Source of the DNA: Chrysochromulina tobinii
Taxonomy: Eukaryota
DNA: 45,482 nucleotides
Reading direction: 5' to 3'
Assembly: GCA_001275005.1 (NCBI GenBank)
Contig: JWZX01002912.1
Location: forward strand, 1 to 45,482
The translations under genes and the position numbers were made by a program. Shown piece after piece: positions 1,618 to 44,104 of the stretch. The notes beneath the pieces are model-generated. The model ran no database searches. It was not told the DNA's origin and worked only from the letters and a program-made list of their open reading frames with translations. Positions within the stretch are counted from its first letter, which is position 1. Each line of letters opens with the position of its first letter.

Positions 1618-4600
1618 TCACGAGCATCTCCACTCCTCTTCGCCATTCTCACCCACCACCACCAGGCACGAGTCCGACTGCTCGCCAGGGCTGGCGTTTA
1701 TCGTCGGCAGGTCGGCCTTGATCTCCGCCTGCACGGCCTTCACCTTGGCGGGGTCGCCAAGGTACCATCCCGACCGGAGCGGCCGCTCCGCCCACGGGGT
1801 CGCGATGGGCTGCAGCTGCTCGTCGAGCTGATACACGAGCGGCACGGCGTAAGGCACGTCGACCAGCGGGATCTCGTCAATCTCGAGCTGCTCGAGGTGC
1901 TTGACGAGGCCACGGAGCACGTTCTCCGACGCGACGACGAGGACCGTCGGCACCTGATGAGGGAGGCCATCAGGAGGTCATCGAAGGCAATCAAGAAGCA
2001 ATCAAAGGTCATCAGCGACCATCAGCGGCCATCAGAGGCCATCAGAGGCCATCAGAGGACCGTCCGCACCTCGTACTCCTCGCCACTCTCCGGGAGATCT
2101 CAATCTCAATCTCAATCTCAATCTCAAGATCAAGATCCGCACCTCGTACTCCTCGCCACTCTCCGCGCACGCCGCGCGCGCCTTGGCAACAGCGCGCTTC
2201 ATCGCAGGCTGCAGCTCGCCATACAGGAAGGGGAGCGTCCGCGCGGTGCAGTCGCGTAGCGACTCGGCGTCGGGGGGGAAAGGCAGTTCTACGAACTTGT
2301 CGTCCTCAAGGATGGAGCAGCTGCCGCGGTCGCGGTCGCTGTCGCTGTCGCTGTCGCGGTCGCGGTCGCTGTCGCGGTCGCGGTCGCGGTCGCCGTCGCC
2401 GTCGCCGTCGAAATCGCGGCCGTTGCTGCTCTCAGAGCTACCCTTGCTACTCTCGCGCAGACTGGGCTCCACCACGTCTTGGCACATCGCCTGCCACCTC
2501 TCGCTCAGCCCATCCGTCGCGCCGTATCGGCGATCGATCATCTGACGTCGCAGGGTTTCGTCCCACGGAGGCGGCCGGTCGTAGTACCCGCGACGCCACT
2601 TTTGCACTTGCTTGAGGCCGTGCCGATCAACGCACTCCGCTTTGACGAGACCAGTGAGCGCGCCGTAGTTTCGCTCGTTGAGCCGCCACGTGTTCCGGAT
2701 CGGCGTCCACTGCCATCGGCAGCAATCAGTAGCAATCAGTAGCAATCAGTAGCCATCAGTAGCCATCAGTAGCCATCAGTAGCCATCAGTAGCCATCAGT
2801 AGCCATCAGATCGGCGTCCACTGCCATCGGCAGCAATCAGTAGCCATCAGTGGTCACCTGCAAGTCCATCTCGTCGAGCGCGAGCCACGCTGTCTTCACG
2901 GCGCGCTGCAGCAGCGACGTGTAGAGCACCTGGTGGGGAGGATGGCGCCGTGGTGAGGACTTGCATGCAGCGCTGTCTTCACGGCGCGCTATAGCAGCGA
3001 CGTGTAACGCACCTCGATCTTATTGATGCCGACCCCCTTCAGCAGCTGGCCCGCGAGCCGTGCCTCATCGCGCCCGCGGCTGGTCAAGTCGGGGTCTGCC
3101 CAGCCGGTGAAGATTTTGTCGAGATTGTAGCGCGACTGTCCGTGGCGTAGCAGCACGAGCGCGCAGCGCACCTTTTGCTTCTGGTTGCGCACCTGGTGGC
3201 GGCGAGAGACGCGCTGAGAGATGGGTGGTGCGGCGCGGCGCGGCGCGGCGCGAGCAGCGCGAGCAGATGGGCGCAGATGGGCGGAGGTTGGCAGAGATTG
3301 GCAGAGATTGGCGGAGATTGGCGACAGCGGAGGGTGAGAGCAGCAGTGGAGGGTGGCCGCACGAGCCGCACGTATCTCCTCCCCCTTCGCGTTGGCTTGG
3401 CTGGCGGCTGGCGGCTGGCGGCTGGCGGCTGGTGGCTGGTTGCAGCGGTGGCGGCGGTGGCATACCTGCCGGTTGCGCGTCGCCAAGCGGAACTCGGCAA
3501 GTTCCGAACGCGCTGTCTTTTCTAGGCGCAGCGACTCCTGCCATATCAGGGAGGACGCGGAGTGGCAACTCAGCCGTCGCGACCGCAAGTGATCTAGAGG
3601 GGGAGACGGTGGCGGCGTGAAGACGCCCCATCCTTCCAAATATGGGAGGAGTTCACACCTGGAAGAAGTACGAGGGCGGCGTCTGCCGAACGGTGTAGGC
3701 CTCGCCCTCGATCTCCGCCAGCGCGCGCCCCGCCGTCTGCGCCGCGAAAGCCGCCTGCACCAAGTTGCCATCGGCGCTGAGTGGGGAGTACGCGATGTCC
3801 TGTCTCACCTGGTCCCTCATCGCAAGCTGCGCGGCGCGTACTCGCGCCTCGTCGCATAGGAAGCGCCCATGGCGGACGCAGCCCTCGCGGTCTGCCCAGA
3901 GGCCCTGCACGCGCACGTGCTTGAGGGTTTCGTCAAAGTCATAGAGCAGCGGCGTGCCCGTGGGCACGTCGAGGTGGAACACGTCGTCGTCGGAGATGCC
4001 GTCTAGCTTCTTGACGAGCGCGCGCAGCGTGTTGCCGTGAGACACTACGAGGACGGTCTTGCCGGCGACGAGGGCGGGCTGCAAGGTCTCTTGCCACAGC
4101 GGCTCCAGCCGGGCGCACACCATCCTCAGCGACTCCGCGCCGGGCACATCCGACGGCTCGTAGCGTGCATCCGCCTTGAAGGCCTTCTGCAACGGGTTCC
4201 CGTCGGGCAGCAGAGGAGGCAGCTCGTCGTACTTCCGACGCCAACCCATGACGGTGTCTTCGCCGTACTCCTGTGCCAGCTCACGCTTGTTCCGGCCCGT
4301 GAGCATGCCCGAGTGCTGCTCGTTCAGCTCGACGTGCTTGTGGACTGGGATCCAGCAGCCGTTCAGTGTCGAGAGCAGCAGCACGCTGGTCCGGATGGTC
4401 CGACGCATCATCGAGGTGTGCACCTCATCGACGTGAAGGCCCTCGGCCGCGATCAGGCGGCCAACCTCGCGCGCCTCTGAAATGCCCTGCTCCGTCAGAT
4501 CAACATCCACCCAGCCAGTGAACAAATTTGCACGATTCCATTCTGACTGTCCATGCCTCACGAGAATAAGCCGTGCGTGGGGCTCGCGGCTTTGCGCGAT

Positions 4601-4714
4601 TAGGTTGAGGCGGTGCGCTCTCGGCGGTGCCGAACGCGGCAGTGAGTGGTGCTGGAGTGGCACGAGCGCTGCTGCCGCTGTCGTGAGGAAGACCATGTGC
4701 ATTTTCTTTTGCAT
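1618..4714 (-). CDS. gpmA: Tandem two-domain cofactor-dependent phosphoglycerate mutase (dPGM), probably plastid-targeted; exons 4714-3659, 3537-3466, 3192-3013, 2929-2858, 2709-2143, 1953-1618 (~760 aa)
   Basis: Domain 1: [43 protein letters not shown]. Domain 2: [48 protein letters not shown]. Five GT-AG phase-0 introns join the frames cleanly. Hydrophobic then Ser/Arg-rich N-terminus. Confidence 0.9.
1954..2142 (-). other. PGM intron 5: GAGATT hexamer array, internal copy of the exon-exon junction, CTGATGGCCT array and CCTCCCTCATCAG acceptor
   Basis: GT at 2142, AG at 1954; removal restores EEYE|VPTVLVV. The internal GAGGAGTACGAG-GTGCGGACGGTCCTC matches the spliced junction with 1 mismatch. 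Confidence 0.85.
2326..2410 (-). repeat. Coding hexamer microsatellite (GACCGC/GACAGC/GACGGC) encoding [10 protein letters not shown]
   Basis: Tandem hexamers visible in frame within PGM domain 2. Confidence 0.8.
2710..2857 (-). repeat. PGM intron 4: (CTGATGGCTA/CTGATTGCTA)n 10-mer array with a duplicated acceptor plus exon start
   Basis: 10-mer array at about 2720-2810. GATCGGCGTCCACTGCCATCGGCAGCAATCAGTAGC occurs at both 2698 and 2809. Removal gives [18 protein letters not shown]. Confidence 0.85.
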
Positions 4715-5077
4715 AAGGTCACGTACTCGGTCGCGCTGGCCGCGTTACCCTGCTCCACGTGCGCGCGCGCGCGCGCGTGCCCTGGCGCAACAGAGGCATC
4801 CCCCGCGCAAAGGCAATCCGAAGTCCGCAAACTCTTCGAGATTCGGAGAGCTCGTACGGAAGTCAAGTCAGGTCAAGCCAAGTCGTGCGGAAGGGAGCGT
4901 CGACAGTGCCCAGAATGCACGTGCAAAGATGATGGCCGATTCCATTGATGCTTTCTTCTTTAGGAATCCTACTTTTGTGACGAAGACACCACGCCGCCCC
5001 CCTGACGAGCTCACCCCGTGTGTGTCCTGTGTGTCCCGGCTCCCCCCGGTGTCTTTGAACCGGCGGTTTGCCCTAAA

Positions 5078-7330
5078 ATGTCTTCAAAGTTGCCTTCGCC
5101 AAAATGTGCAAGTCTGTCCTCTAAGCGTCGCGGGCGGATGCCGGGGAGTCCCGTCGACTCGGATGAAGATATGCTGCGGATGCGGACGGAGCTAGCCGAG
5201 CAGAAGAAGCGCATGCTCGAGGAGAAGAAGCGCAAGAAGGAGGAGGAGGCAGCGCGCATCAAAGCGCAGAACAAGGCCATGCGCGACAAGATCAAGAAGA
5301 CCAAAGCAGCCACGGATAACAACATTGCCGATGACGTCACCGCAGATGGTAAGAGTGTAGGCCAGCTCCGAGCGGAGGAGGCGGCGGCGTCCAAGGCTCG
5401 GATGGAGGCGGAGGCGGCGAGGCTCGCGGCGGAGAATGCGGCCCAGCGTGAGCGCATCGCCAACACGGTCGCAGCCACAGATGACGAAGTCTTTGATGAC
5501 GTCACCGCAGATGGTAAGACCGTAGGCCAGCTCCGTGCGGAGGAGGCGGCGGCGTCCAAGGCTCGGATGGAGGCGGAGGCGGCGAGGCTCGCGGCGGAGA
5601 ATGCGGCGCAGCGTGAACGCATCGCCAACACGGTCGCAGCCACAGATGACGAAGTCCTTGACGACATCACCGCAGATGGTAAGACCGTAGGCCAGCTTCG
5701 TGCGGAGGCGGCTGCGGCGTCCAAGGCGCGGTTGGAGGCGGAGGCGGCGAGGCTCGCGGCGGAGAATGCGGCGCAGCGTGAGCGCATCGACAAAATTCTG
5801 GGCAACGCTCCGAAAAAGGCTCCGGAGAAGGGTGGCAAGAACGCGGGAGCAAGCAGCAGCGACGAGCCTCCGACAACCGACGCCTTCAAGACCCTGCGCA
5901 AGGTTGTGAAGGCGGCTCAAATCAAGGAAGCTCTGGAGCGCAAGGAGGCTCAGGAGCGAGAGCGTTTGGAGGCCATCAAGGAGGCGCGCATTGCTGCCGA
6001 GCGTGCCCACATTGCTAAGCTCGAGGCCGATCGGCACGAGCATGCGGAGAGGCGACGGACGTCGCCGCAGCTCGAGATGCTCGTCAAATGCGGCTTGGCC
6101 ACGCTCAACCGCATGTCCAAATCTGAGCGGGGCCTATCCGCGCTCATCAACGACGTGGGCGAGCTGCTGCGCGAGGCTCAACGGCTTTCGGAGGCGGAGG
6201 CGCTCTTCATCGAGGTGCGTGGACGCGCGACGAACCCTGACGAACCCTGACGAACCCTGACGAGCACCAATGCGCCCTGACGAACCCTGACGAGCACTGA
6301 CGCGCCCTGACGAACCCTGACGAACCCTGACGAACCCTGACGAGCACTAATGCGCCCTGACGAACCCTGATGCGCCCTGACGCGCCCTGACGAACCCTGA
6401 CGAGCCCTGACGAACCCTGATGAGCCCTATCTGCCCTCCCACGTGCCACTCCCACGTGCCCCGCCTGATTGCCTCCCTCATCAGGCGCTTGAGGTCCGGC
6501 GAAAGGTCAAGGGAGATCACGACCCGAGCACGCTGATCTCGCTCAATAATCTCGGCCTGCTGCTGAGCGAGCTCGGGCGGTACAACGAGGCGATGCCGTT
6601 GCTCGAAGATGCGCTCGAAGCACGCCGGGATGCCCAGGGGCCAAACCACCCGGAGACCCTCACGGCGATGAACAACTTTGGCGCGCTGCTCAAGGCGATG
6701 GGTCGTTACGAAGACGCGCTGCCATTGTACGCGGAGGCCTTGGAGACGCGTCGCGCCGTGTTGGGCGATACGCACCCGGACACTCTTGCCTCGATCAACA
6801 ACTTGGCCTCGCTGCTGCAGTCGCTGGGCAAGCACCGACTCGCCGAGACTCTTCTCGAAGAGGTGCGCCCGAGATTGCGATCTGAGTGCGATCTGAGAGC
6901 GATCTGAGTGCGATCTGAGTGCGATCTGGGTGCGATCTGAGTGCGATCTGAGAGCGATCTGAGTGCGATCTGAGTGCGATCTGGGTGCGATCTGAGTGCG
7001 ATCTGGGTGCGATCTGAGTGCGATCTGGGTGCGATCTGAGTGCGATCTGGGTGCGATCTGAGTGCGATCTGAGTCGCAATGCTTCGATGCGCTTGATGAC
7101 CGTGTGGCATTCGTGTGGCATAGGCGCTGTCGGCCGCACGCGACTCCCTCGGGGCTGAGAATCCATGCACGAAGATCTTTGAGTACAACCTGGCCAAGGT
7201 GCAGGAGAGGCTACGTCAGGAGCTCGAGTCGCTCTACGTCAAGCGCGCCACCTCGCAGGAGTCCATCCGTTCAATCTATGCCAAGCCGGCCGAGCGTGAA
7301 GTCATTCATAACAAACCGTACGCGAAGTAA
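5078..7330 (+). CDS. Coiled-coil/repeat protein with C-terminal kinesin-light-chain-like TPR repeats; exons 5078-6214, 6485-6862, 7124-7330
   Basis: 42-aa TPR_12-type units (HPETLTAMNNFGALLKAMGRYEDALPLYAEALETRRAVLG; HPDTLASINNLASLL). Two GT-AG phase-0 introns give LFIE|ALEVRR and LLEE|ALSAAR. Confidence 0.85.
5306..5788 (+). repeat. Three near-identical 165-bp (55-aa) coding repeats
   Basis: GCAGCCAC starts at 5306, 5471 and 5636; peptide unit AATDDEVxDDVTADGKTVGQLRAEEAAASKARMEAEAARLAAENAAQRERIANTV. Confidence 0.9.
6215..6484 (+). repeat. Intron with (CGAACCCTGA)n 10-mer array ending in TGATTGCCTCCCTCATCAG
   Basis: About 19 degenerate units at 6231-6420; acceptor cassette at 6466-6484. Confidence 0.9.
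6863..7123 (+). repeat. Intron with (GTGCGATCTGA)n 11-mer array
   Basis: About 18 units at 6876-7075, with GT and TAG boundaries. Confidence 0.9.
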
Positions 7331-7868
7331 GTAGGCTGTGGGCACCCGCGCTCGTTTTACGTTTAGTGCCTCCGGCATCACTCCAGCAGGGGCGTCATGG
7401 AGTTGTGCACTGTGTGGTGGAGCGCGCATTTTTCAAAGCTTTTGACCCGGAGTATTGTGGCAGGGCAGGTTGGAGCACACTGTTTGTTCATTAGGAGCAC
7501 GCGAGTTTGACCGTGTCTTAGCGATCATGTACGGTGTGGCCGAGACCCGAGTTGTTACCGCTCCTGTTCACAGCCAATGGTTATAATTCGACACCCAAGA
7601 CACCGGACCGCGCGTACATAAGAATGCCATTTCCGCAAGCTCGGCTCGAGGACCCCTGCGCCCTGGACCCCTTGTAACCACTCAACCATCTCGTTTACTC
7701 GTCAGCCGCCGGGCCGGGCGATTGTCGCTAAGCCCCGCCCGGACGCCAAAAACGCGTCCTTAATCAGGCACATCTCCATTTCGGTGCCTTCTTCCAAACT
7801 GGCTGCCGCTGTTCACAGCCAATGTTCACAGTGGTAAATGCGAGTAGAGAGGGCCCGTACAACTACTC

Positions 7869-8741
7869 ATGGACTGTCGGCTCGCTCGCTTGACGCCTCC
7901 TTATCGCCTTGTGGTGGTGGACATGGACGGCACATACCTTAATTCTGCAGGTCAGATCTCGGAGCGCAACTACAAGCTCGCATCCACGCTGCAGCAGCGC
8001 GGGGTTCACTTTGTGATCGCCACTGGTCGGCCTTCCGCCGTGCTGCAGCCTCTCATCAACGAGATGGGAGTCGCCTCGCTGCCCACTGTTACGTTCAACG
8101 GCGCGTGCCTGCAGCACGCCCGCGCAAACTTGCCGTCCACGCCGCTGTGGTACGACGCCATCGAAGCAGCAAAAGCCCGCGAGGTTGTGGCGCTTTGCAC
8201 CGAGCAGCTCGGCCTCGGCATCTCATACAGCACTCGAGCGACGTCGTATTTTGTCGCGAGCACGCCGGAGCAGCGCGAGAAGCTCTCCACGTACGAACGG
8301 CTTGAGAAGGTGGCGCAGGACCACGTGCTCGGCAGCGCCGCCGAGCTCTTCGCCGTGGACAGCCTGCCACTCGCGCTCAAGATCGTGGCTCTCACGCCCA
8401 CGCCCGACGCCCACGCGGCGGACGCGCGCGCGGCGCTGAGCGGCCGCGGAATCCACGTCATCTCGGCCGAGATGCACATCGAGTTCGTCAATGAGCACGT
8501 GAACAAGGCCGCGGCCCTCCGAAGGCTCTGTGACGTTCTCGGTGTTCCGCTGGCTGGCGTCGTAGCGTTCGGCGACGCGATGAACGATCTCGAGATGCTG
8601 AGCAGCGTCGGGCTGGGCGTCGCGATGAAGAATGCGCGCGAGGCCGTCAAGGCCGTCGCGGCCGAGACGTGCGACTTCACGAACGATGAGGATGGCGTCG
8701 CTCGCCGATGTGAAGAGCTCATCACCCAAGGCTTGCTGTGA
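7869..8741 (+). CDS. Cof-like HAD-superfamily hydrolase (subfamily IIB)
   Basis: Motif I VVDMDGTYL, motif II ATGRP, motif III NKAAAL, motif IV AFGDAMNDLEML, then GVAMKNA and NDEDGVA. Confidence 0.93.
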   Translation: MDCRLARLTPPYRLVVVDMDGTYLNSAGQISERNYKLASTLQQRGVHFVIATGRPSAVLQPLINEMGVASLPTVTFNGACLQHARANLPSTPLWYDAIEAAKAREVVALCTEQLGLGISYSTRATSYFVASTPEQREKLSTYERLEKVAQDHVLGSAAELFAVDSLPLALKIVALTPTPDAHAADARAALSGRGIHVISAEMHIEFVNEHVNKAAALRRLCDVLGVPLAGVVAFGDAMNDLEMLSSVGLGVAMKNAREAVKAVAAETCDFTNDEDGVARRCEELITQGLL

Positions 8742-9279
8742 GAGCCGACGAAGGAGTTGTAGGAGCGACGGGGCGGATCGATATTAAGGTCAAAGCGTGT
8801 TCATTATGAATAAAAAGAGCACAGGTCGGCGAGGTCTTCGAATCACGAAGGAGGCGTCTTTTCAACTTTTCGAAGGAGGTCGCGTATAAAACAAATAACA
8901 ATGTCGTTTTGAATAGACGTCAATACACCCAAGATCATGTGCACACCGCAGTGTCACAGGACATATGACTTAAACACAGATGAGACGCGCCGCGCGTCAT
9001 ACTCCTCATACACCGTTCACCGCACCATTCGGTCACACGATGACTGTCGGGCATCTCGTACTTCGATCGTTTTGAGGAGGTCGCGCGGTCAAATCGACAC
9101 GTTACCCAGCAGCTCACGTTCGAACGTGGAGCTTTCGTCAACGCGCATGCGGCCTCGAGCGCTTCGCATGAATGTTTGTACCGTGCTTCACGGATGGTCA
9201 TCGAGGAGGCTGTAGTTAGTGGACAGTTGGTGGACAGACGCCTCGTAACGGCATCATATGGTACCTGTGCCTCGACGGA

Positions 9280-10068
9280 TCAGAAGTCATCGAAGAGGCT
9301 CTTGACGTACGCCTCGAACGAGGCGTCGAGCGCCTCGGTGACCGCACGCGTGAGCGCGCGCGGCCGACCGTTGGGAGGGTAGTTGTCGGAGGGGTCTAGC
9401 CCGTGTACAAAGAATTGGTCAGCCCATCCACGAAGAACAAGATCGAGATCGTCATCAAGGGGATCCCCTTGCCCAATCAAATCCAAAATTGTGCTCAGCT
9501 TGATGAAATTGTTGAAGCGTTTGACGATGCGTGCCGATGCGATGACCTTCAAGCCCGCCGCCCGAAGCGAGAGCCTCTTGGCCGCCTCTGCCGCCATCTT
9601 GCCGATCTTGGCCGCCTCATCCAACTTGCCACCCGCGCTGGAACCGGCGGCCGAGCCCCCCGAGCCAGAACCGGCGGCCAGCGCCGGTGCTGCCGCGGCG
9701 GTCACCGCCGCTGCCGCAGCATCGATAATCCACTGAAGTCCCGTGCAGCGGTGACCGAACTTGATCTGTCCGCACTTCCTGCACTTGTTGCGCTTCTTGT
9801 CGCCGTCTTCTCTCTCCCGTTCCGCCTTGGCGTTTTTAGTGCGCAGGTAGTGATTGCGAACCGCGGCGTCGTTCCGGGTGGGAAAGTGCTCTATCGTGAG
9901 CTTCTTCCACTGTATCTTGCCCTTTTCCATGTACGCACCGCCGTTGACAACGTTTGTCAGCAGTTCGTCCTCATCACCGGTCCACATGGTCTGCTTGTCG
10001 TGGGCGCCACCTCGCCTCCTCTTGTCCCCATGTTGAGCAAGGTCGGGATCTTCCCATTCATCTCCCAT
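9280..10068 (-). CDS. Myb/SANT plus CxxC-H-C knuckle protein, paralogue A (5'-deleted; possibly pseudogenising)
   Basis: WTGDEDELL...WKKL...FPTRNDAAVRNHY and CRKCGQIKFGHRC. The ATG homologous to paralogue B's start (10109) is 41 nt upstream and out of frame. Confidence 0.7.
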   Translation of the reverse strand: MGDEWEDPDLAQHGDKRRRGGAHDKQTMWTGDEDELLTNVVNGGAYMEKGKIQWKKLTIEHFPTRNDAAVRNHYLRTKNAKAEREREDGDKKRNKCRKCGQIKFGHRCTGLQWIIDAAAAAVTAAAAPALAAGSGSGGSAAGSSAGGKLDEAAKIGKMAAEAAKRLSLRAAGLKVIASARIVKRFNNFIKLSTILDLIGQGDPLDDDLDLVLRGWADQFFVHGLDPSDNYPPNGRPRALTRAVTEALDASFEAYVKSLFDDF

Positions 10069-10400
10069 GGGGTCCTCGAGCTTCGAGCTTTTTGGGAGCG
10101 CGGCGGCATGGCTGCGCGGCGAATGCGCACGATGTGCTTTTCAAATCATTTCCACAATTGCGTGGAAACGGAAGTTCGGTGCGGAAATGAAAACAAGTTG
10201 CGGCTTCGTTCGTTCGTTTCAGGACCCCCTACCCAGACTGGTACCTGGTGACACATCCTCTCATCTTCCGGCACGAGCACAGAGGGTCGTCCTTGTTCAC
10301 GGATGGGTTATCGAGGAGGCTGTAGTTTGCAGCTGTAGAGTGTATTAGTGGACAGTTGGTGGGCAGACATACGGCATCATGGTGCCCGTGCCTCGACGGA

Positions 10401-11378
10401 TCAGAAGTCATCGATGAGGCTCTTGACGTACGCCTCGAACGAGGCGTCGAGCGACTCGGTGACCGCACGCGTGAGCGCGCGCGGCCGACCGTTGGGTGGG
10501 TAGTTGTCGGAGGGGGCTAGCCCGTGTGGAAAGCATTGGGCAGCCCAGCCACGAACCGCAATCTTGACATCGTCATCAAGGGGATCCATACGCAGAGCCG
10601 AATCCAAAACTGTGTGCAGCTTGACGCTCTTGAAATTGTTGAAGCGTTTGACGATGCGTGCCGATGCGATGACCTTCAAGCCCGCCGCCCGAAGCAACTT
10701 GCCACCCGCGCTGGAACCGGCGGCCGAGCCCCCCGAGCCAGAACCGGCGGCCAGCGCCGCTGCCGCAGCACCGAGGCCGCTACTGCCGGCGGAACCAGAG
10801 TGGGGAAACCCCGTAAAGGAGCCAAGTTGGAGATCGTCCTCGTCCGCGATCGACCTCAGGGCCATTCCCACGTAGTCGGCGGTGGCAGCGCTCGCCTCAA
10901 AATCTGCGAGGGTCCACTCAGGCTGCGAGCCCGTGCAGCGGTGACCGAACTTGATCTGCTTGCACTTCCTGCACTTGTTGCGCTTCTTGTCGCCGTCTTC
11001 TCTCTCCCGTTCCGCCGTCGCTTTTTCAATGCGCAGGTAGTGATTGCGAACCGAGGCGTCGTTCCGGGTGGGAAAGTGCTCTATCGTGAGCTTCTTCCAC
11101 TGTAGCTTGCCCTTTTCCATGTACGCACCTCCGTTGACAACGTTTGTCAGCAGCAAGTCCTCCTCACCGGTCCACATGGTCTGCTTGTCGTGGGCGCCAC
11201 CTCGCTTCCTCTTGCCCCCTTGTTGAGCAAGGTCGAGAGCTTCCCATTCATCTCCCATGGGGTCCTCGAGCTCACTTGGCCCCGTACCCATGCCCAACTC
11301 ATCGTCGGGCGGCGCATGAGCTTTTTGCGGGGCCCCGCGCGGAGGGGGGGGTCCCATCGACGCGGGGCGAGGCGGCAT
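10401..11378 (-). CDS. Myb/SANT plus CxxC-H-C knuckle protein, paralogue B
   Basis: WTGEEDLLL...WKKL...FPTRNDASVRNHY and CRKCKQIKFGHRC; highly similar to 9280-10068. Confidence 0.8.
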   Translation of the reverse strand: MPPRPASMGPPPPRGAPQKAHAPPDDELGMGTGPSELEDPMGDEWEALDLAQQGGKRKRGGAHDKQTMWTGEEDLLLTNVVNGGAYMEKGKLQWKKLTIEHFPTRNDASVRNHYLRIEKATAEREREDGDKKRNKCRKCKQIKFGHRCTGSQPEWTLADFEASAATADYVGMALRSIADEDDLQLGSFTGFPHSGSAGSSGLGAAAAALAAGSGSGGSAAGSSAGGKLLRAAGLKVIASARIVKRFNNFKSVKLHTVLDSALRMDPLDDDVKIAVRGWAAQCFPHGLAPSDNYPPNGRPRALTRAVTESLDASFEAYVKSLIDDF

Positions 11379-11554
11379 GGCGGCGCGTCAATGGAATCTC
11401 CAAGTACGGTGCGGAAATAAAAACTCGCCACGGAGGCATGGCCGTATGTTTGCTGTTCAACACAACGCGAAAAATCTCCACAATCGTTGTGGGCTGGGCC
11501 AATCTTGTTCGCTCCGATGGCGGCAATTCACAGCACAATGTTCCGCATTCGGAA

Positions 11555-12106
11555 ATGAAAAACATGCTCGTGGTCGGCGCGCTGTTCGCCACCACTGTCG
11601 CCGCGCTGCATTGGCCCGCTCCTCAGATTTCGCGGCGAGCCGTCGCGTGCGGTGCCGTGGCAGCTGTGCTGCAGCCTTCTGGCGGCTTCGCCTCTGATGA
11701 GATCATCTCCACCGTATTGGTACCCGGTGACACATCCTCTCCTCTTCCGTCTCGAGCACAGAGGGTCGTCGTGGATTACACGCTATGGCTCAACGATTTC
11801 GAAGGGAAACAGATAGATACTTCGAAAGGAACGCTGCTTCCATTCCCGCGGCCACCCTCACCATTCTCATTCTCGCTCGGGGTGGGAGAGGTTGTGCCAG
11901 GCTGGGATAAGACTGTCAAGTACATGCACCTTGGCGAGACGCGTCGAGTGATCATCCCACCCGAATTCGGCTATGGTGAGAAGGGCACGGGGCCGATCCC
12001 CGGGAACTCCAAACTCTACTTCGAGATCACGTTACTCGAGCTCAAGCCACCGCCCGTCCTCAGCGAGAAGCAGTTGCAATGGCTGGCGGAGCACCCAGAA
12101 CCGTGA
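11555..12106 (+). CDS. FKBP-type peptidyl-prolyl isomerase, probably thylakoid-lumen targeted
   Basis: VVVDYTLWL..IDTS..FSFSLGVGEVVPGWD..MHLGETRRVIIPPEFGYGEKG.GPIPGNSKLYFEITLL. Signal peptide followed by SRRA twin-arginine and a hydrophobic stretch. Start at 11555 or 11564. Confidence 0.92.
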   Translation: MKNMLVVGALFATTVAALHWPAPQISRRAVACGAVAAVLQPSGGFASDEIISTVLVPGDTSSPLPSRAQRVVVDYTLWLNDFEGKQIDTSKGTLLPFPRPPSPFSFSLGVGEVVPGWDKTVKYMHLGETRRVIIPPEFGYGEKGTGPIPGNSKLYFEITLLELKPPPVLSEKQLQWLAEHPEP

Positions 12107-28457: not shown

Positions 28458-28505
28458 TTCTCGCGACAACAAGCGCGCGCGGGACGGACGGGGAGAGGGA
28501 AAGTT

Positions 28506-28543
28506 GAAGTGTGAAGTGTGAAGTGTGAAGTGTGAAGTGTGAA
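28506..28543. repeat. (TGAAGTG)n heptamer microsatellite
   Basis: About 5 perfect units. Confidence 0.9.
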
Positions 28544-35730: not shown

Positions 35731-35944
35731 AAGTCACTACACATACGTACGGGAATGGCATACAATCCACAACCCCATGTATGATGGGGCGTACAATTTT
35801 TGTTATACATGTAGTATTAAATACTTTTAATAGTTCAAAGGAGCGCCGCGCCTACATTACACTGACACAGGTGTGTGAAATGAGGGTCGAGAGAAGTGAT
35901 GAACAGCCAATTCACACTCAGTGGATGATCGTCGGAGCTCACAA

Positions 35945-37507
35945 ATGCTGACGCCATTCATTTGCACGGCGCTCTCCTTCTGGGCGCTGCCAGTGCAGCG
36001 ACATTCTGCCGTCGTCGGGCTCCGCACGAGACGGCTGGCCTTGAACGCCGAACCACCCAAGGACTCGACCTCTGTGCCTGCCATGCCCGGTGTGCCCTCA
36101 TTTGAGCAGTTCAAGAAGATGATGCAGACGGACGTGTCACCGGAGAAGCTCAGCGTCGGCGAGAAGGTGCAGGCGGGGATTTCCCAGAGCTGGGTGAACC
36201 CCGCGTACTGGAGCCGCCAGTTTGTGCAGGCGTCGCACATCTCCAACAACGTGCCCAATGCGAGCCGCGTCGTAGAGCTGGGCAAGGACGCCAAGAACCT
36301 GTACTACTTGAACGCTCCGGCCGCGTGCACGCTGATCGTGCCGCCGAGTAACGCGAAGATCGAGGAGGGCCCGATCCGCGAGGCTGCCGCGAAGCTCAAC
36401 GTGCCCTTCACGCTCTGGACGGGCAAACCCCTCGATGAGATACCGCTGCGCCCGGGCGCATTCGACGCAGCTCTCTGCTTTGATATGCTCGATGGTGCGC
36501 CGGAGCAGGCGGCGGCGGGCGCGATCGCCCTGCTGAGCAGCAGCCTCGCGCCCAATGGGAGGCTCCTCTTCCTCGAGCGCGCGACCGTTGGTATGCCCGC
36601 CCTCGCACGCACGTACGGCGGCCTCAGCGTGCAGTTCGATACGGAGGGCGGATTCGACGTGGGCATCGGAACGAAGCCGGGGGTGGGCAAGCCCGGGGGT
36701 GCGAAGCGCAAGGCGGCGGCGGCGGCGGCAGCGGCGCAGCAGCAGCAGTCGGAGCAGGCACGCGCAGCCATGGCCGCCAAGGGAGGCTTTGGCGCCGTCG
36801 TGGGCACTCGGGAGGTGTCGAGGGAGGCGAGGGCGGCGGAGAAGGAGGCGAGGGCGGCGGCGAAGGCGGCGGAGAAGGAGGCGAAGGCGGCGGCCAAGGC
36901 GCAGGCGGAGGCGCAGGCGGAGGCGCAGGCGGAGGCGCAGGCGGAGGCGGAGGTGGCGGCAGCTGAACGGGCGGCGGCGAAGCAGCAGCAGCAGCAGCAG
37001 CAGCGGGCGGCGGCGGAAGCGGCGGCGGCGGCGGCGGCGGAAGCGGCGGCGGCGGCAGCAGAGAAGGCGGCAGCAGAGAAGGCGGCGGTGGAGGCTGCGG
37101 AGGCGGAGGCGCGGAGAGTGGCAGCGGAGACGGCCGCGGCAGAGGCAGCGGCCAAGGAAGCCGCGTTGCGCGCGGCTGCCCAGGCGAAGGCAGCGGCGGA
37201 CAAGGCGGCGGCGGACAAGGCGGCGGCGGACAAGGCGGCGGCGGACAAGGCGGCGGCGGACAAGGCGGCGGCGGAGGAGCAAGGTGCCGTGGCTGCGGCA
37301 GCTCAGGCAGCGGCGGCCGCGCAGGCGGAAGCGGCCGCCGCTGAGGCGGCCGAGGGCGAGTACATGCAGGTGTCATGCCCCAGCGAGCTCGGACCAGATC
37401 GGCTTCTGCGCGTGCAACTGCCCGACGGCCGGCTGTTCGATGTGGCCGTGCCCGAGGGCCTCGCGCCGGGCGACGAGTTTGTGGTTGGGCCGTTTCCGAC
37501 GGTATGA
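35945..37507 (+). CDS. Probably plastid-targeted methyltransferase-11-like protein with Ala/Glu/Lys linker and small C-terminal VPxGxxPG domain
   Basis: Signal-like N-terminus; VVELG, FDAALCFDML, LAPNGRLLFLE; (AAADK)n repeats; C-terminal VQLPDGRLFDVAVPEGLAPGDEFVV. Confidence 0.7.
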   Translation: MLTPFICTALSFWALPVQRHSAVVGLRTRRLALNAEPPKDSTSVPAMPGVPSFEQFKKMMQTDVSPEKLSVGEKVQAGISQSWVNPAYWSRQFVQASHISNNVPNASRVVELGKDAKNLYYLNAPAACTLIVPPSNAKIEEGPIREAAAKLNVPFTLWTGKPLDEIPLRPGAFDAALCFDMLDGAPEQAAAGAIALLSSSLAPNGRLLFLERATVGMPALARTYGGLSVQFDTEGGFDVGIGTKPGVGKPGGAKRKAAAAAAAAQQQQSEQARAAMAAKGGFGAVVGTREVSREARAAEKEARAAAKAAEKEAKAAAKAQAEAQAEAQAEAQAEAEVAAAERAAAKQQQQQQQRAAAEAAAAAAAEAAAAAAEKAAAEKAAVEAAEAEARRVAAETAAAEAAAKEAALRAAAQAKAAADKAAADKAAADKAAADKAAADKAAAEEQGAVAAAAQAAAAAQAEAAAAEAAEGEYMQVSCPSELGPDRLLRVQLPDGRLFDVAVPEGLAPGDEFVVGPFPTV

Positions 37508-37731
37508 GGTTGAGAATACTTATTATTTGGTGTGGATGTTCCGTTGCTTCGGAATCGGATCATCCTAAATCCTTCTTTAAACGACACAGTACGACACACC
37601 AGGCCAAACTGCGAACGAGAGTGCAGAGTCGAGACATCGGACGGCACCACAGAGACCCACAAGCATCGGACCGTAAGCAGGGTCTGACGACACCCAAACG
37701 TGACGCAGGCGCCGTCTCGAGCGCGCTCATC

Positions 37732-40700
37732 ATGGCGACTTCTCTGTCGGCTCGTCTGTTCCTCTACGGCGCGGCCGGCGCCGTCGCGCTCTGCAGCTAC
37801 GTAGTCACGCGGCGCCGGCGTGCTCGAGCTGCCGAATGCGTCCAAGAACCAGAGCCAGGACCGCCGCGGGATCTCGTGGGCTACGGCCGCCGGCCGCCGC
37901 GCGCCGCTTGGCCAGCAGGCGCGGCCCTAGCAGTCAACTTTGCGATCAACATCGAGGAGGGCTCAGAACCGAGCATTCTCGACGGCGACGACAGGTCGAG
38001 CGGGGCACTATGCGAGTGCCCGAGCGAGGCGCCACCCGGCGTGCGCGACCTCGCCGCGGAGAACATGTTTGAGTACGGCTCGAGGGTAGGCATCTGGCGT
38101 TTGCTGCGCGCCTTTGAGCGGCGCTCGGCGCCCGCAACGGCGTTTGCGTGCTCGCTGGCGCTGGAGCGGCTGCCCGAGCTCGCGGCCGCCGTGCGCGACG
38201 GCGTCGCACGCGGCCTCCTCGACGTGTGTTGCCATGGATACCGTTGGGAGGACCATGTCGCGATGGACGAGGCGACGGAGCGATCTCGCATAAAGGCGGC
38301 GGTGGTCTCCCTCACGAGCACGCTCGGGGCGCCGCCCAAGGGCTGGTACTGCCGCACGGCACCCTCGATCCGCACGCGCCGCTTGCTCCTCGAGCACGGC
38401 GGCTTCGAGTACGATTCAGATGCCTACAACGACGAGCTGCCGTATTGGACTCGAGTGGTGACCTCCGATGGCGCCGAGCATTATCACCTGGTACGCGCCC
38501 CGTGATGTCGTTTCTGATGGCGTGTTGATCGCTTTCCGATGGCCTTCTCGAATGGCAGGTGCTTGATCCATACGGCCCGCTGATGACCTTTGATTGCCTC
38601 TTGATTGAAATACAATTGATGACCTCCTTGATTGCCTCCCTCATAGGTGCTGCCATACACACTGTGCACCAACGACTCCAAATTCGCGCCATTGATGACC
38701 TCCTTGATTGCCTCCCTCATCAGGTGCTGCCATACAATCTGTGCACCAACGACTCCAAATTCGCGCCAGGGCGCGCCTTCTCGACGGCAGATGACTTTTA
38801 CAACTTCGTTCGGGCCGCGGTCGATGCTCTGATCGAGGAGGCGGACACGACGGGCGTGCCCCGTATGCTTTCAGTTGGGTTGCACCCGCGTCTCATCGGG
38901 CATCCTGCACGTATCGGGTGAGTGCTCCTAATCGAGAGTGATTGGGGCCGTCATCAGCTGGCCGCCATCAGCTGATTGCTCTTGATCGAGAGTGATTGGG
39001 GCCGTCATCAGCTGGCCGCCATCGGCCGCTCCTGAAGACCCGTGCGATGTCGACCCCGTTGCACCCGCGTCCTTGCGCCCTCGGTGTTCCTGTGCTCGCA
39101 GCGGCTTGCATCAACTGCTCGACTATCTCATCGGGCTCGGTCCGAATCGAGTTTGGCTCGCGAAACGAGCGGACATCGCGTCTCATTGGCGGGCGCATCA
39201 TCCACCACCGGTGCTCGTGCCGAAGGCCGCTGCCCCGGCGGCGGAGGCGACGGAGGCGGGGGCGGCGGCGGCGGCGGTGACGGAGGCGGGGGCGAAGGTG
39301 GCGACGGCGAGTGCGGCGGCGGTGGTGGCGGCGGTGGCGCTGATCGAGGCGATGGTGGCGGTGACGATTGCGGCGACGGAGGTGACGATGGAGGCGGCGC
39401 ATGCGGCGGCGGCGGCGTTGCAGAGGGCGGTGGCCCTCCGTCAACGCCTCCGTCAACGCCTCCGTCAGTATGCCGAATCAGGAAGGCGGATCTACAACCT
39501 CCGCCACAACTTGAGTGCCGCCGCGACCATGAAAGCGTTCATCGACGCCTTTGAGGGAGGGGAGGGGAAGGAGGAGCTGCGGAAGCTGTTCCACTCAATC
39601 GACATCGACGGGAGCGGTGTCGTCTCGTCCAAGGAGTGGGGCAAGGCTATCGGGCAGCACTGGAAGCTGATGGGGCGTTTCTTTGGCGGGCTCACCGTTG
39701 GCGAGGTGGGCCAGATGTTCAAGAAGCTCGACGCGGACGGCTCGGGCGACCTCACGTGGGACGAGTTTGAGACTGCGCTGCAGCAGATGGACTGGAGCGT
39801 GCGGCTCGCTCAGGCCCTCGAGAGCCAATCTGGGGCGGCCGAGCTCAAGGCCTTGTGGGATCGTTTGGACAAGAACGGCGACGGCAAGGTCAGCGGCAAG
39901 GAGTGGGGCTCGGCGGTCCATGAGGACCAGCAGGTGATGGCCAAGTACTTTGGAGGGAAGGACCTCAAAGGGATTGGCAAGATGTTCTCCAAGATCGACG
40001 CCGATGGATCGGGAGATCTCACCTGGGACGAATTCGTCAACGGCTCGATTCGGCTCGTGCACTTGCCTAATTTGGACGAATTCGTCAAAGGCTCGATTCG
40101 GCTCGTCGCCGTCGCTACCGGCGACGCAGCCGGCGACGAGGCCGACGATGCCACTGCCGCGTCCTCGTCGGAGCTGCTCGATGCGAGATCTCGCGAGCAC
40201 CAGGGAGATCTCACCTCTTCGGAGCTGCTCGAGGCGAGATCTCGCGAGCTCCAGGGAGATCTCACCTCTTCGGAGCTGCTCGAGGCGGCGCCCTCTGCGC
40301 CGCCGCCGCCGCCCGTGCCGCGCCCCCATCTGCCATTCACGGGCCCCAGGCTGTTGATCACCGGAGGTGGAGGGTTCGTGCTTTCGCACGTCGTCGTGGC
40401 GTGGCTCGCCCAGGACGACGCGTCCCAAACCGACCTCACTGATGGATTGGCGCAAGGCGCCCAGGACGACGCACCTGCCGCCGCCACGCCCGCCGCCGCC
40501 ACGCCCGCCGCGAGGAGCGCTTCGAAAAAGGCGAGCGCGGCGTCTCCCCTCTCGAGCTGCGTCGTCTTCGATCGGCACTTCGACGCCGCCGCGCTCGCCT
40601 TCTTACGCGAAGCCCTCGCGAGCGGCCGGCTGCAGCTCTTCACAGGCGACGTGGGCGACGTTCACAGCTGGTCCCAGCTGGTCGACGCACACGGATCGCA

Positions 40701-43700
40701 CTTTTCCCACATGGTGCTCGGCGCGGCGCTCACGCCCACCGCGGACGAAGAGGCTCAACTCGGCGCCGAGGTGTTGCGCGTCAACTTCGTCGGCGTGCTG
40801 CATGCACTCGAGCTCGCGAGGAGCGGTTCCAAATTTGGGTGCCCCGCACTGCCACGCGTCGTGCTGGTCTCGTCGGACGCGGTGCGCTGATGACCTCTGA
40901 TGACCTCTCTGATGAGCCTCTGATGAGCCTCTGATGACTTCTGATGGGCCTCCGATGACCTCTGATGACCTCCGATGACCTCTGATGACTTCTGATGACC
41001 TCTCTGATGACCTCTGATGACCTTCCTCATTAGGTGCTCTCCGCCCCGGAGCTCGGCGGTGCTCTCCACTCACGCGAGCGCGACGCCAACCCCGACGCAC
41101 CGAGCGTGCCGCTGTACGCCCTCTCCAAATTAGGGAGCGAGGGCGTCGCCGAGCGCTACGCGTCGCTCTACGGCATCGAAGTGGTCTCCGTTCGCTTCAG
41201 CGATGTCTACGGTCCGATGGCGACACCGGTTGCATGCTGATTGCATGCTGATTGCATGCTGATTGCATGCTGATTGCCTCCCTCATCAGGGCCGATGGAT
41301 CGCGACACTGGCGCGCGCAACCGGCACAACGCGCCGTACCACGTGGCGACGAGATTGAGCCGAGATGAGCCGCTCGTAATCTCGGGCGATCTCGAGGACG
41401 TCGGATGGGATTACGTGGACGCGTCGAGCGTCGCGCGCGCCGTCGTGGCGTTGCTCACGGCGCCGACACGCCCGGGACGGCGCGTGTACGAGATCGCACT
41501 TGGGCGGCCAGTGACGCACGGTCAGTCTCGTTGATGGCCTCTGATTGCCTCGGATGGAGATCGCACTTGGGCGGCCAGTGACGCACGGTCAGCACACTTT
41601 GATGGCCCCTCTGATGGCTTCCACTGGACTACTTTAGCCTTGATTACATGCTGATTGCCTCTGATGGCCCTTTCCACTGGACACCCATCCTTGATTGCAT
41701 GCTGATTGCCTCCCTCATCAGGTGAGCTGCTCGCGGCGGCGCTCGAGCTTCCGCTGGACCATCTGTTGCAATCTCCGAGCTTGCTGACTGCTCGCGGCAT
41801 CAGCCTGGTGAGCAAGTCGGATGTTCACACCGCGGTAGCCCATGTTCACACCCTCCCGCCCGACCATTGGCTCCACGCACGCCCGCTCGATACGGCGCCC
41901 CTACTTGCCGAGTTTGGATGGCGTCCAACGCCTCTCGGGACCGCGATGGCGGAGTACATGGCGTGGCTGCGCCGGCAAGCCTCGCCCGGGACGACGCTGG
42001 CGCCCGGGACGACGCTGGCGCCCGGGACGACGCTGGCGCCCGGGACGACGCTGGCGCCCGGGACGACGCTGGCGCCCGGGACGACGCTGGCGCCCAACGA
42101 AGCAGCTGCCGCCGCCGCCGGCACCGCTACTGCCGCCGTGTCGACGGCCGGCGCTGCCGCGAGCGCGCCCTCAGCATCGCACACCACACTCAGCATTGCC
42201 CTCGACACCGCCTCCGGACTTCCGATGACGTGTCATCCACTCGCTGTGGAACTCTTTGGCCGACGGTTACAGCCACTAGGCCAGCGTGCGGTGAGAGCCC
42301 CTCATAGTGATTGCGACGGATTGCGACTCATGGCGACTGAGTGCGACTGAGTGCGACTGAGTGCGACTGACTATGTGCAGCTGAGCGTCTTCGTACTCTC
42401 CGAGATCGAGGGGCTACTCCATCCTTGATTGCATGCTGATTGCCTCCCTCATCAGCTGAGCGTCTTCGTACTCTCCGAGATCGAGGGGCTACTCCATCCT
42501 TGATTGCATGCTGATTGCCTCCCTCATCAGGTGAGCGTCTTCGTACTCTCGGAGATCGAGGGGCTGCGGGATGCCTTTGCGCTGGCTGGCTTCGATCCGG
42601 GATGCATGGCTTGGCTCTCTGACGCCATCAGTGGCACTCTGACGGTGGCGGACGTGCAGGTAAGTCTCGTTGATCGCCTCTGATCGCCTCTGCTTGCCTC
42701 TGCTTGCCTCTGATCGCCTCTGATCGCCTCTGATCGCCTCTGGTTGCCTCTGGTTGCAGGCGTGTCTCGAGCACGCGGAGGTGATCATCGGCGAGCCAAA
42801 AGGATCAACGCTCGAGCTGCTCGCCGCAGCGCCCAATCTCCGATGGTTCCAGGCACGTGATGATTGCATGACTGATTGCATGCTGATTGCCTCCCTCATC
42901 AACTGCTCGCCGCAGCGCCCAATCTCCGATGGTTCCAGGCACGTGATGATTGCATGACTGATTGCATGCTGATTGCCTCCCTCATCAGCTGCTCGCCGCA
43001 GCGCCCAATCTCCGATGGTTCCAGGCATGTGATCGACAGCAGACAGGCTGTCACGGCTGGAAGACCTGATTGCCTACCTCATCAGGCGACCTTTGCTCGC
43101 GGTCACGGCAGCTCAGCTGATTGCCTCCCTCATCAGGCGACCTTTGCTGGCTGTAACGGCATGATGAGCATGCCTCTGCCGGTCGCTCCTTTCGTGACGA
43201 CGCGGCTCGGTGGGGCCTTAGGTGCGGACATTGCCGAGTACGTGGCGGCGCACGTGCTTGCCCTCGAGCGCGGGCTCGGCGTGCATGCAAGCGCTCAGCA
43301 GCGCGCGGCGTGGCCCGATGACGAAACCCGCCGGCGCTCGTACCGGCGGCTCCCGTCGCTCACGCTCGGGATTCTCGGGCTCGGAGATCTCGGACGTGCT
43401 GTCGCTCAGCGCCTCGGCCCTGGATGCCTCGGCATGCGTATCGTCGGCCTTCGACGGACAGGCTCGTCCGCCGGCGGAGTCTCGTCAACCGGCGGAGTCT
43501 CGTCAACCGGCGGAGTCTCGTCAACCGGCGGAGTCTCGTCAACCGGCGGGGTCTCGTCAACCGAGATGGGCGCCCGTGGCCCAGCCGAGGAGCCGACGGA
43601 GGGTTTGGTCAGCCGTATCTACGGGCCGACGGAGCTCGCGAGATTCCTCGGCGAGTGCGACTACATCGTCTCGCTCTTGCCCGACACGCCGGCCAGCCGC

Positions 43701-44104
43701 GGTCTGCTCGACCACGACGCCTTGGCGCCGTGTGCTACGAAGCAGCCGGTGCTCATCAACGCGGGGCGTGGCTCGCTCATCTCCGAGGCGGAGATCACGC
43801 GAGCTCTCGATCTCGGCTATCTGCGCCACGTGGTCGCCGACGTCTTCATGACCGAGCCGCTCCCCGCGTCCTCGCCCCTCTGGCGCCACCCGAAGGTGAC
43901 CATCACGACGCTGATTGCCACTGATGACGCTGATTGCCACTGATGACCTCGCCCCTCTGGCGCCACCCGAAGGTGACCATCACCCCCCACGTCGCGGCGG
44001 TGACGAAACCGGCTGACGTGGTCGCTTGCTTTGGGGAGAACCTGAAGAGGTACGCGGCGGGTGAGCCCCTCAAGTATGTCTTCGATCTGGAGCGCGCCTA
44101 TTAA
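37732..44104 (+). CDS. Composite ~1607-aa protein: PuuE-type allantoinase/polysaccharide deacetylase + 4 EF-hands + NAD-dependent epimerase + D-2-hydroxyacid dehydrogenase; exons 37732-38490, 38724-38917, 39102-40881, 41034-41211, 41290-41520, 41722-42290, 42531-42659, 42760-42852, 43137-43895, 43973-44104
   Basis: PuuE: RDLVGYG, NIEEG, EYGSRVG, HGYRW, YDSDAYNDELPYW, GLHPRLIGHP. EF-hands: DIDGSGVVSSKE, DADGSGDLTWDE (x2), DKNGDGKVSGKE. Epimerase: ITGGGGFV, VSSDAV, YALSK, VYGP. Dehydrogenase: LRWFQ|ATFAG, GLGDLG, LINAGRG, DVFMTEPLP, ITPHVA. The exons sum to 4824 nt in one open frame. Confidence 0.75.
40882..41033 (+). repeat. Intron with (CTGATGACCT)n array ending in variant acceptor TGACCTTCCTCATTAG
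   Basis: About 13 degenerate units; removal gives VSSDA|VLSAP. Confidence 0.85.
41983..42095 (+). repeat. Six perfect 18-bp coding repeats (PGTTLA)
   Basis: CGCCCGGGACGACGCTGG x6 in the epimerase-dehydrogenase linker. Confidence 0.95.
43471..43560 (+). repeat. Five 18-bp coding repeats (GGVSST)
   Basis: CCGGCGGAGTCTCGTCAA x5 inside the dehydrogenase domain. Confidence 0.95.

What the first reader, a model, noticed from the sequence alone, without database searches (positions are those of the whole stretch)
1954..43972. Candidate intron-generating system: exon-border duplication + CTGA-repeat array + shared acceptor cassette TGATTGCCTCCCTCATCAG
Seen: the 19-nt cassette or a close variant ends 8 of 18 reconstructed introns in three unrelated genes (AG at 1954 on minus; 6484, 38723, 41033, 41289, 41721, 42530, 43136 on plus). 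It occurs 5 more times inside introns (ending 38646, 42455, 42902, 42988, 43085). Every copy is intronic and on the host sense strand. Eleven of 18 introns contain a ~15-45-nt copy of their own flanking exon border. Known: tandem duplication of an AG|GT site is a proposed intron-gain route, and introners in Micromonas and Aureococcus are TIR-bounded DNA transposons with similar full-length bodies. Here only the 3' cassette and repeat words are shared, there are no TIRs, and the duplication length varies. Inference: a templated insertion or repair process adds a branch-point array and acceptor between duplicated target sequence, making spliceable introns and recurring at the same sites. Whether this is already described for this lineage cannot be checked here.
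Basis: partly seen in the sequence, partly recalled or inferred. Interest (0 to 1): 0.92.

Follow-up and report, generated by a model that had tools for sequence, protein, structure and literature searches.

The report
Introns built from other introns' tails
In a freshwater haptophyte alga many introns consist of a 13-55-base copy of the next exon followed by the same short splice-acceptor end, one such intron is present in some strains and absent in others, and they are likely made by copying the tail of an existing intron into a new site, a route to new introns that current introner searches would miss.

Summary
Confirmed and extended. The window is from the Chrysochromulina tobinii/parva group. 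The 19-mer occurs 12 times, none in 100 shuffles; RNA contigs join 8 of the 18 introns directly. In 140 metagenome loci, 52 of 109 cassette-ended units carry an upstream copy of the next exon's first bases, against 7 of 600 controls; median 23 nt, range 13-55. A second acceptor family is built the same way (29 of 55). Intron 41212-41289 is missing from 10 of 15 listed near-identical genomic ORFs: a filled/empty polymorphism, direction unproven. Corrections: many copies replace or duplicate an existing acceptor rather than open a new position, and two antisense, in-frame copies exist. Fillers are shared between introns of one gene ten times more often than between genes. Best reading: homology-primed, one-ended copying of intron 3' ends with a variable target duplication, probably by reverse transcription of pre-mRNA; enzyme and template not shown. 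The 2025 introner survey lists 0 families for C. tobinii.

The parts
41212..41289 (+). 78-nt intron of the cleanest type: GT donor from an 18-nt copy (4 nt lost) of the next exon's first 22 nt, an 11-mer CTGAT array, and the cassette acceptor. Polymorphic: absent in other strains.
   Evidence: RNA contig length and start at 41289; 10 of 15 listed cluster members lack it, P0384 reads into it with an intact duplication
1954..2142 (-). Intron of the PGM gene ending in a one-mismatch cassette (1972-1954); holds a 38-nt copy of its own junction (about 2091-2055: 23 nt upstream exon, 15 nt downstream exon) and two repeat arrays
   Evidence: RNA pieces stop at 1954 and start at 2144, no joint listed
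2930..3012 (-). Family-B intron: 42-nt copy of the downstream exon (3012-2971), then the second acceptor family (2970-2930)
   Evidence: RNA joint in 3 of 4 runs
2710..2857 (-). Intron with a CTGAT array and a 16-nt duplication across its acceptor; no cassette
   Evidence: RNA joint in 4 of 4 runs
6215..6484 (+). TPR-gene intron: CTGA array plus exact cassette (6466-6484); no detectable exon copy
   Evidence: RNA joint in 1 of 4 runs
38491..38723 (+). PuuE-domain intron whose position is older than its 3' end: earlier acceptors at about 38559 and 38646, a 45-nt downstream-exon copy at 38647-38691, exact cassette 38705-38723
   Evidence: RNA join; position shared with P0064 and P0065, absent in P0072, P0066, P0076
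40882..41033 (+). Intron made of a CTGATGACCT-type array with a loose (4-mismatch) cassette variant
   Evidence: RNA length arithmetic; other ends in other strains
41521..41721 (+). Intron with a 37-nt duplication across its donor and an exact cassette (41703-41721); its last 37 nt are identical to the ends at 42455 and 42530
   Evidence: RNA join
42291..42530 (+). Older intron (acceptor at 42380) extended by two units of a 35-nt downstream-exon copy plus the 3' end shared with intron 41521-41721; the intronic copies start CT instead of GT; cassettes 42437-42455 and 42512-42530
42853..43136 (+). GC-AG intron with two copies of a 45-nt stretch spanning its donor, each followed by array and cassette (42884-42902, 42970-42988), and a duplicated acceptor (43067-43085, 43118-43136)
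   Evidence: RNA contig piece starts at 43134
43896..43972 (+). Tandem-duplication type intron: a 37-nt repeat spanning AG|GT gives both splice sites, filler is CTGAT repeats only; splicing not shown
   Evidence: 5 of 15 listed cluster members run through the site but are not provably genomic
44064..44205 (-). Two 54-nt units (34-nt copy of the gene's last codons plus a 20-nt filler that reads like a branch point and acceptor on the minus strand): an antisense event of the same shape with another filler

Best explanation
These introns are a variable-length copy of the next exon's start followed by an acceptor end shared with other introns, and they likely arise when a break at a G|GT or G|GC site in a gene is repaired by copying the last 30-100 bases of an existing intron, most likely by reverse transcription of its pre-mRNA. 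Shown: the anatomy, the splicing, the precise AG end and ragged far end, two acceptor families, same-gene sharing of fillers, one filled/empty polymorphism. Inferred steps: (1) the antisense strand is nicked at the site and its 3' end anneals to the exon start behind a donor intron's AG, which looks alike because both sites tend to read G-T/C-G; (2) synthesis runs back through acceptor and branch-point array and falls off at a variable point; (3) the sense strand, broken 13-55 nt further downstream, is joined to that end, which duplicates the target; (4) the first copy supplies the GT/GC donor, so splicing restores the mRNA exactly; (5) every new intron is itself a template, so two good acceptor ends have spread without any element body. 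At a site with no intron this makes a new one; at an existing acceptor it replaces the 3' end. Arrays and whole units then expand by slippage. Selection removes most antisense or unspliceable events.
For: Anchored downstream-exon copy in 52 of 109 unique units against 7 of 600 mismatched pairs (Fisher p 3e-40). Lengths 13-55, median 23, 1196 of 1237 bases identical, 24 of 48 perfect. G follows the AG in 163 of 191 contexts; GT or GC in 98 of 109 terminal ones. Downstream sequence scores like sense coding DNA (81 sense, 10 antisense, 18 non-coding of 109; known CDS 104/7/21 of 132; intergenic 0/3/59 of 62), although the genome is reported as 40% coding (PMC4580454, passages). Same-contig pairs share 11 nt or more beyond the cassette in 6 of 87 against 79 of 10,939; 0 of 2000 permutations reach this. 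The three longest-sharing pairs also share 6-7 nt of exon start, base rate about 3% for 5 nt or more: the template includes exon 2, so it is not a free lariat. Non-cassette acceptors overwritten by a foreign end at L022, L042, L128 and window 42380. Empty allele of 41212-41289. A short, pristine form of the L034 intron in P0329. Variable-length target duplications flank non-LTR insertions (PMC9977147, passages).
Against: No reverse transcriptase, master copy or RNA intermediate was seen; no genome was held. Two antisense family-A units (60 and 78 nt, in open frames) and one antisense family-B motif at a stop codon exist, which fits unbiased insertion plus selection as well. Microhomology at the far junction is weak: 7 of 48 with 3 nt or more against 4% expected. 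6 of 20 units behind an old acceptor are self-copies that DNA slippage explains. The ProRS intron L006 has new-intron anatomy, yet an 84% identical relative reads in from an intron at the same position (P0183). 5 of 6 introns tested by cluster look-up showed no empty allele among the listed members (clusters favour like alleles). The polymorphism is not polarised: deletion between the 22-nt repeats would also give an empty site. About half of the units have no detectable duplication. The same-gene test rests on 4 genes, 3 of its 6 pairs from the window.
Confidence: 0.45

Rival explanations
1. Same anatomy, DNA template: a stalled fork or break end switches by microhomology to another intron's acceptor in the same gene or elsewhere, copies 30-100 nt and switches back; no RT is involved, and selection keeps the spliceable products.
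For: Self-copies are ordinary tandem duplications (6 of 20). Same-gene sharing with 6-7 nt of shared exon start. Duplications across donors and in coding repeats are common in the window. Antisense in-frame survivors. Direct repeats at new Daphnia introns are ascribed to staggered-break repair (PMC4202315, passages).
Against: Needs two switches, and the far junction mostly lacks microhomology (31 of 48 with none). Long-range switches should leave intergenic copies, and terminal copies behave like sense exons.
Confidence: 0.28
2. A HUH (Replitron-like) transposase recognises the acceptor end as an origin and performs one-ended copy-and-paste with a ragged far end.
For: Replitron-1 inserts orientation-specifically at a dinucleotide, carries variable flank of the parent copy at one end and makes variable target duplications; one Replitron locus was recovered in C. 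tobinii (PMC10288648, parts 1-5 of 7 read). The cassette has a 5-6 bp inverted repeat at its ends (sequence).
Against: No terminal direct repeats or element body. Folding is no better than shuffles (8 folds, z from -1.74 to +1.85). The paper saw those signatures only in Chlamydomonas and calls them possibly non-canonical. Two unrelated acceptor families would both need to be origins.
Confidence: 0.1
3. A short non-autonomous retroelement (SINE- or Penelope-like) with a master copy and a tandem-repeat tail, read on the antisense strand, is inserted by a partner RT.
For: Constant end, repeat array and variable duplication are non-LTR-like; non-LTR introners are about 5% of classified families (PMC12130899, section 6); a Pavlovales family with 'co-opt 5', carry 3'' is classed non-LTR (supplement file 8).
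Against: Fillers track neighbouring introns, not one master. No intergenic population. No Rfam match in 6 sources. No match in viral contigs; 5 in prokaryote genomes against 4.3 expected by chance.
Confidence: 0.07
4. No dedicated process: frequent tandem duplications across splice sites are neutral, the cassette is a selected splice signal, and new-looking introns are old introns whose first part was lost.
For: Shared positions at L006 and 38491; self-copies; interval 43896-43972 fits plain AG|GT duplication.
Against: An empty allele with both flanking introns intact. Foreign ends overwrite unrelated acceptors. 37-42 nt identical ends between different introns. Other introns of the same genes splice with unrelated ends, so the 19-mer is not required.
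Confidence: 0.1

Closest known systems
Introner-like elements of Symbiodinium and Polarella glacialis, classes 4/5 and 6/8/10 (bioRxiv 10.1101/2020.10.14.339549, parts 1-2 of 4 read)
   Same: [quoted passage not shown]
   Different: Those have fixed 3-8 nt duplications and a family body (inverted repeats in Symbiodinium). Here duplications are 13-55 nt and variable, and only the last 20-45 nt are shared.
Introners of marine Chrysochromulina MAGs and E. huxleyi (PMC9860276 / bioRxiv 2022.06.06.494994, passages and supplement rows; PMC12130899 supplement rows)
   Same: Same algal group; intron gain by copying; E. huxleyi fam24 is noted as 'co-opt 5', carry 3'' with 10-bp terminal direct repeats.
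   Different: The pictured Chrysochromulina family has a 4-bp duplication and carries the 5' site. The pipeline needs both intron ends to be alike; C. tobinii is listed with 0 families.
Intron gain by tandem genomic duplication of AG|GT (reviewed in PMC3443670, passages)
   Same: Donor comes from duplicated exon sequence; interval 43896-43972 and the self-copies fit it.
   Different: In the main class the duplication starts at the donor and has no AG of its own; branch-point array and acceptor come from another intron.
Intron gain at repaired staggered breaks in Daphnia (PMC4202315, passages)
   Same: Direct repeats, repeated events at one site, introns that lengthen by later events.
   Different: There the source of most inserts is unknown; here it is recurrently an intron 3' end with a fixed AG boundary.
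Non-LTR target-primed insertion and Replitron-1 insertion (PMC9977147 passages; PMC10288648)
   Same: One precise end, one ragged end, variable target duplication, copy-and-paste.
   Different: No element, poly(A) tail, terminal repeats or coding partner seen; the mobile unit is the end of an ordinary intron.

Membership tests
Introner (survey definition) | Introns of a family alike at both ends | tested here: not met
   5' ends are locus-specific exon copies; across contigs only 79 of 10,939 pairs share 11 nt or more beyond the cassette
Introner (survey definition) | Many copies in unrelated genes, removed by splicing | tested here: met
   140 loci, 109 unique terminal units; RNA joins at 6484, 38723, 41721 and family-B 2930-3012
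Introner (survey definition) | Creates introns at previously empty sites | tested here: inconclusive
   Empty allele for 41212-41289 in 10 of 15 listed members, direction not polarised; two other positions shared with relatives
TIR DNA-transposon introner | Terminal inverted repeats around the insert | tested here: not met
   The far end is ragged; only a 5-6 bp inverted repeat within the cassette, no better than shuffles
TIR DNA-transposon introner | Fixed short target duplication | tested here: not met
   13-55 nt, median 23, among 48 units with score 12 or more; shorter ones are below the detection cut-off
Non-LTR retroelement | Variable target duplication with one constant and one truncated end | tested here: met
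Non-LTR retroelement | Master copy with defined ends; poly(A) or repeat tail at the priming end | tested here: inconclusive
   No poly(A); fillers follow neighbours; only part of the genome seen
Non-LTR retroelement | Partner RT/endonuclease | not testable with these tools
   No genome held
Replitron | Short terminal direct repeats and an element body | tested here: not met
   None in the 48 fillers printed
Replitron | Orientation-specific dinucleotide target, fuzzy end from the parent's flank, variable duplication (Replitron-1) | tested here: met
   GT/GC after the insert in 98 of 109; same-gene filler sharing
Replitron | Rep HUH transposase acting on these ends | not testable with these tools
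   One locus reported in C. tobinii; not examined here
Tandem genomic duplication introns | Both splice sites come from the duplicated exon segment | tested here: not met
   Met only for 43896-43972; in cassette units the AG belongs to the shared end

The most novel reading that the evidence does not exclude
A bodiless introner: spliceosomal intron tails copy themselves, through their own pre-mRNA and a borrowed reverse transcriptase, into proto-splice sites across the genome, each new intron becoming a new donor. It is still active in lake Chrysochromulina, both founds new introns and homogenises old acceptors, and cannot be seen by searches that need whole-intron similarity.
Probability: 0.35. 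Interest if true: 0.92.

Novelty: new variant of a known kind. Interest (0 to 1): 0.8.

Why it matters
Where new spliceosomal introns come from is still open, and most classified cases are transposons with a recognisable body. Here the shared part is only the branch-point-to-acceptor end, so the 8,716-genome survey scores C. tobinii as having none; other lineages could hide the same route. The system is testable: a cultured alga, long dateable duplications, and at least one filled/empty site among wild strains. It also shows how 3' splice signals can be homogenised by copying rather than by selection alone, and it likely troubles gene annotation in this group.

Tried and rejected
No whole genome or contig access, so no genome-wide count. 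An unanchored repeat scan was swamped by low-complexity repeats. An anchored scan gave 86 AG|G-T/C hits against 33-69 for control dinucleotides, too noisy as a test; used only to find family B. Presence/absence among directly overlapping loci: none in 7 pairs. Homologue search for the dehydrogenase exon among longer proteins gave 1 weak hit. The HMMER search of representatives never ran, so no outgroup for the polymorphic intron. Hairpin role of the cassette: not supported by folding. Master ncRNA: no Rfam hit at gathering score in 6 sources; no viral match; 5 prokaryote matches are chance. Hammerhead idea (the complement starts with the recalled hammerhead box): dropped, the second conserved box is missing by eye. 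Free-lariat template: made unlikely by the shared exon starts. 13 of 26 ORFs given to exact look-up were not in the collection. The classifier is rough: it counts L063 twice and files several likely new introns (L007, L037, L122) as replacements. The E. huxleyi genome paper, which I recall as reporting strand-biased 10-11 bp repeats in introns, is not held; that point is recalled only.
Full report
Organism. Of six window ORFs looked up, four were in the collection and three of their 90% clusters list Chrysochromulina parva proteins; the UDP-sugar pyrophosphorylase cluster lists C. tobinii and C. parva. The window is from this freshwater haptophyte group. No genome was held.

Observation. The 19-mer occurs 8 times exactly and 12 times within two mismatches, never in 100 shuffles. 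I rebuilt 18 introns that give open frames. RNA contigs join 8 of them directly, three ending in the exact cassette (6484, 38723, 41721). One lake-strain contig has 409 nt between 40880 and 41721, the exact exon sum, and 455 nt between 41982 and 43134 against 527 expected; the 72-nt gap equals four units of the 18-nt coding repeat (my inference). Seven acceptors are the cassette; 41033 is a loose variant. Ten of 18 introns hold a copy of their own flank above my cut-off, an eleventh just below.

Beyond the window. One metagenome scan, stopped after 3 of 64 parts, gave 140 loci. Of 191 distinct contexts, 110 were terminal with enough flank and 109 unique. In 52 of 109 the first bases of the next exon recur upstream, against 7 of 600 mismatched pairs. 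Among 48 units with score 12 or more (one, L073, an artefact) the copy is 13-55 nt, median 23, half of them perfect; the filler is a median 50 nt and ends at AG. The copy starts GT in 34 and GC in 11 of 48. Downstream DNA scores like sense coding sequence under a model trained on the window (81/10/18 of 109; CDS 104/7/21 of 132; intergenic 0/3/59 of 62). A second acceptor family, a 24-nt motif plus a variable pyrimidine tract and CAG, has the same duplication in 29 of 55 units, some of them tandem re-duplications, including window intron 2930-3012, which is spliced.

Is it gain? The ORF between introns 41212-41289 and 41521-41721 lies in a 30-member cluster. Ten of the 15 listed members start inside the upstream intron, end inside the downstream intron and run through the 41212 site without a break; one of them was seen on 55 contigs. 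These are best read as genomic alleles without the intron; pre-mRNA with only this intron removed is a less likely source. P0384 reads into the intron through an intact 22-nt duplication; four members start at the downstream Met. Filled and empty alleles occur in both haplotype groups, so direction is not proven: deletion between the repeats would also empty the site. Five other introns of the same anatomy were present in all informative listed members. For 43896-43972, 5 of 15 listed members run through, but may be transcripts.

Results against simple gain. The position of 38491-38723 is shared with relatives at 90% and 83% identity and absent in ones at 86%, 74% and 62%; the tree does not resolve the first four. 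The cassette there was added to an older intron. ProRS intron L006 has clean new-intron anatomy, yet an 84% relative reads in from an intron at the same place. A rough classifier gives 22 new, 26 behind an earlier acceptor and 16 unclear for family A, and 7/3/8 for B. Of 20 units behind an earlier acceptor, 6 copy their own intron end and 14 differ, with clear overwriting of unrelated acceptors at L022, L042, L128 and window 42380; two of the 14 are misfiled. Of 88 loci with two or more copies, 3 have both orientations; in L036 and L140 the antisense unit is 60 and 78 nt and lies in an open frame.

Where the filler comes from. Introns on one contig share 11 nt or more beyond the cassette in 6 of 87 pairs, against 79 of 10,939 across contigs; no permutation of 2000 reached this. 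The three longest pairs (16, 18, 23 nt) also share 6-7 nt of exon start. So ordinary neighbouring introns act as donors, and the template extends into the donor's next exon: DNA or pre-mRNA, not a free lariat. The far junction shows only weak microhomology (7 of 48, p 0.003).

Mechanism. One precise end, one ragged end and a long variable duplication are what target-primed insertion leaves (PMC9977147, passages) and what Replitron-1 leaves (PMC10288648). I commit to priming at a nick in the antisense strand on the exon start behind a donor's AG, copying back into the intron, and joining to a sense-strand break 13-55 nt downstream. RNA as template (0.45) is preferred to DNA (0.28) because copies are confined to genes, nearly all sense, and biased to the same gene. 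This step is inference: no enzyme or intermediate was seen. That the insertion process itself is real, whatever the template, I put at about 0.9 (sum of the first four readings).

Known systems. Carrying the acceptor and recruiting the donor from the duplication is known from Symbiodinium and Polarella, with fixed 3-8 nt duplications and family bodies. Marine Chrysochromulina MAG introners as pictured have 4-bp duplications and carry the donor. The survey method needs both ends alike and lists C. tobinii with 0 families. The C. tobin genome paper mentions introns once (PMC4580454, passages). Ten literature searches showed no description of this system in their listings; subscription papers, including the C. 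parva and E. huxleyi genome papers, were not seen. The review PMC11282704 was read in part 1 of 5 only and PMC11347835 in passages; neither added anything. An earlier AI note on another piece of this genome (e1-2577349) describes the same footprint; it is not independent evidence.

Verdict. Real, spliced, recurrent and at one site polymorphic. It works like an introner but fails the membership test, since there is no shared 5' end or body. New variant of a known kind, with a fair chance of being a new kind. Interest 0.8.

Noticed in passing
window 37732-44104 (+): After splicing, the PuuE-like deacetylase, EF-hand, epimerase and 2-hydroxyacid dehydrogenase domains lie in one open frame: a possible four-domain fusion gene. 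The nearest named hits of the PuuE part are bacterial allantoinases at about 62%.
   Followed up: partly
PuuE relatives P0065-P0074, P0148: Read-through ORFs of eukaryotic relatives break off at many different places in this gene, which suggests lineage-specific intron positions.
   Followed up: partly
window 1624-4696 (-): Two histidine-phosphatase (phosphoglycerate-mutase-like) domains in one spliced frame of at least 753 codons, five introns.
   Followed up: partly
window 9280-10068 and 10401-11378 (-): Tandem pair of near-identical intronless ORFs with a weak Myb-like hit and a C-x2-C motif; the downstream DNA is duplicated too.
   Followed up: no
window 44860-45482: High summed contig depth in RNA and DNA runs suggests a multicopy element at the window's end.
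   Followed up: no
window 42381, 42456, 42903, 42989; L011, L025: Intronic copies of the exon start often begin CT, or follow a damaged AG, as if extra splice sites were removed after duplication.
   Followed up: partly
L062:1227 and window 44064-44205: Antisense inserts at the very end of coding sequences, where the insert supplies or follows the stop codon.
   Followed up: partly
window 42853: GC-AG intron; 11 of 48 duplication units in the loci also start GC.
   Followed up: partly
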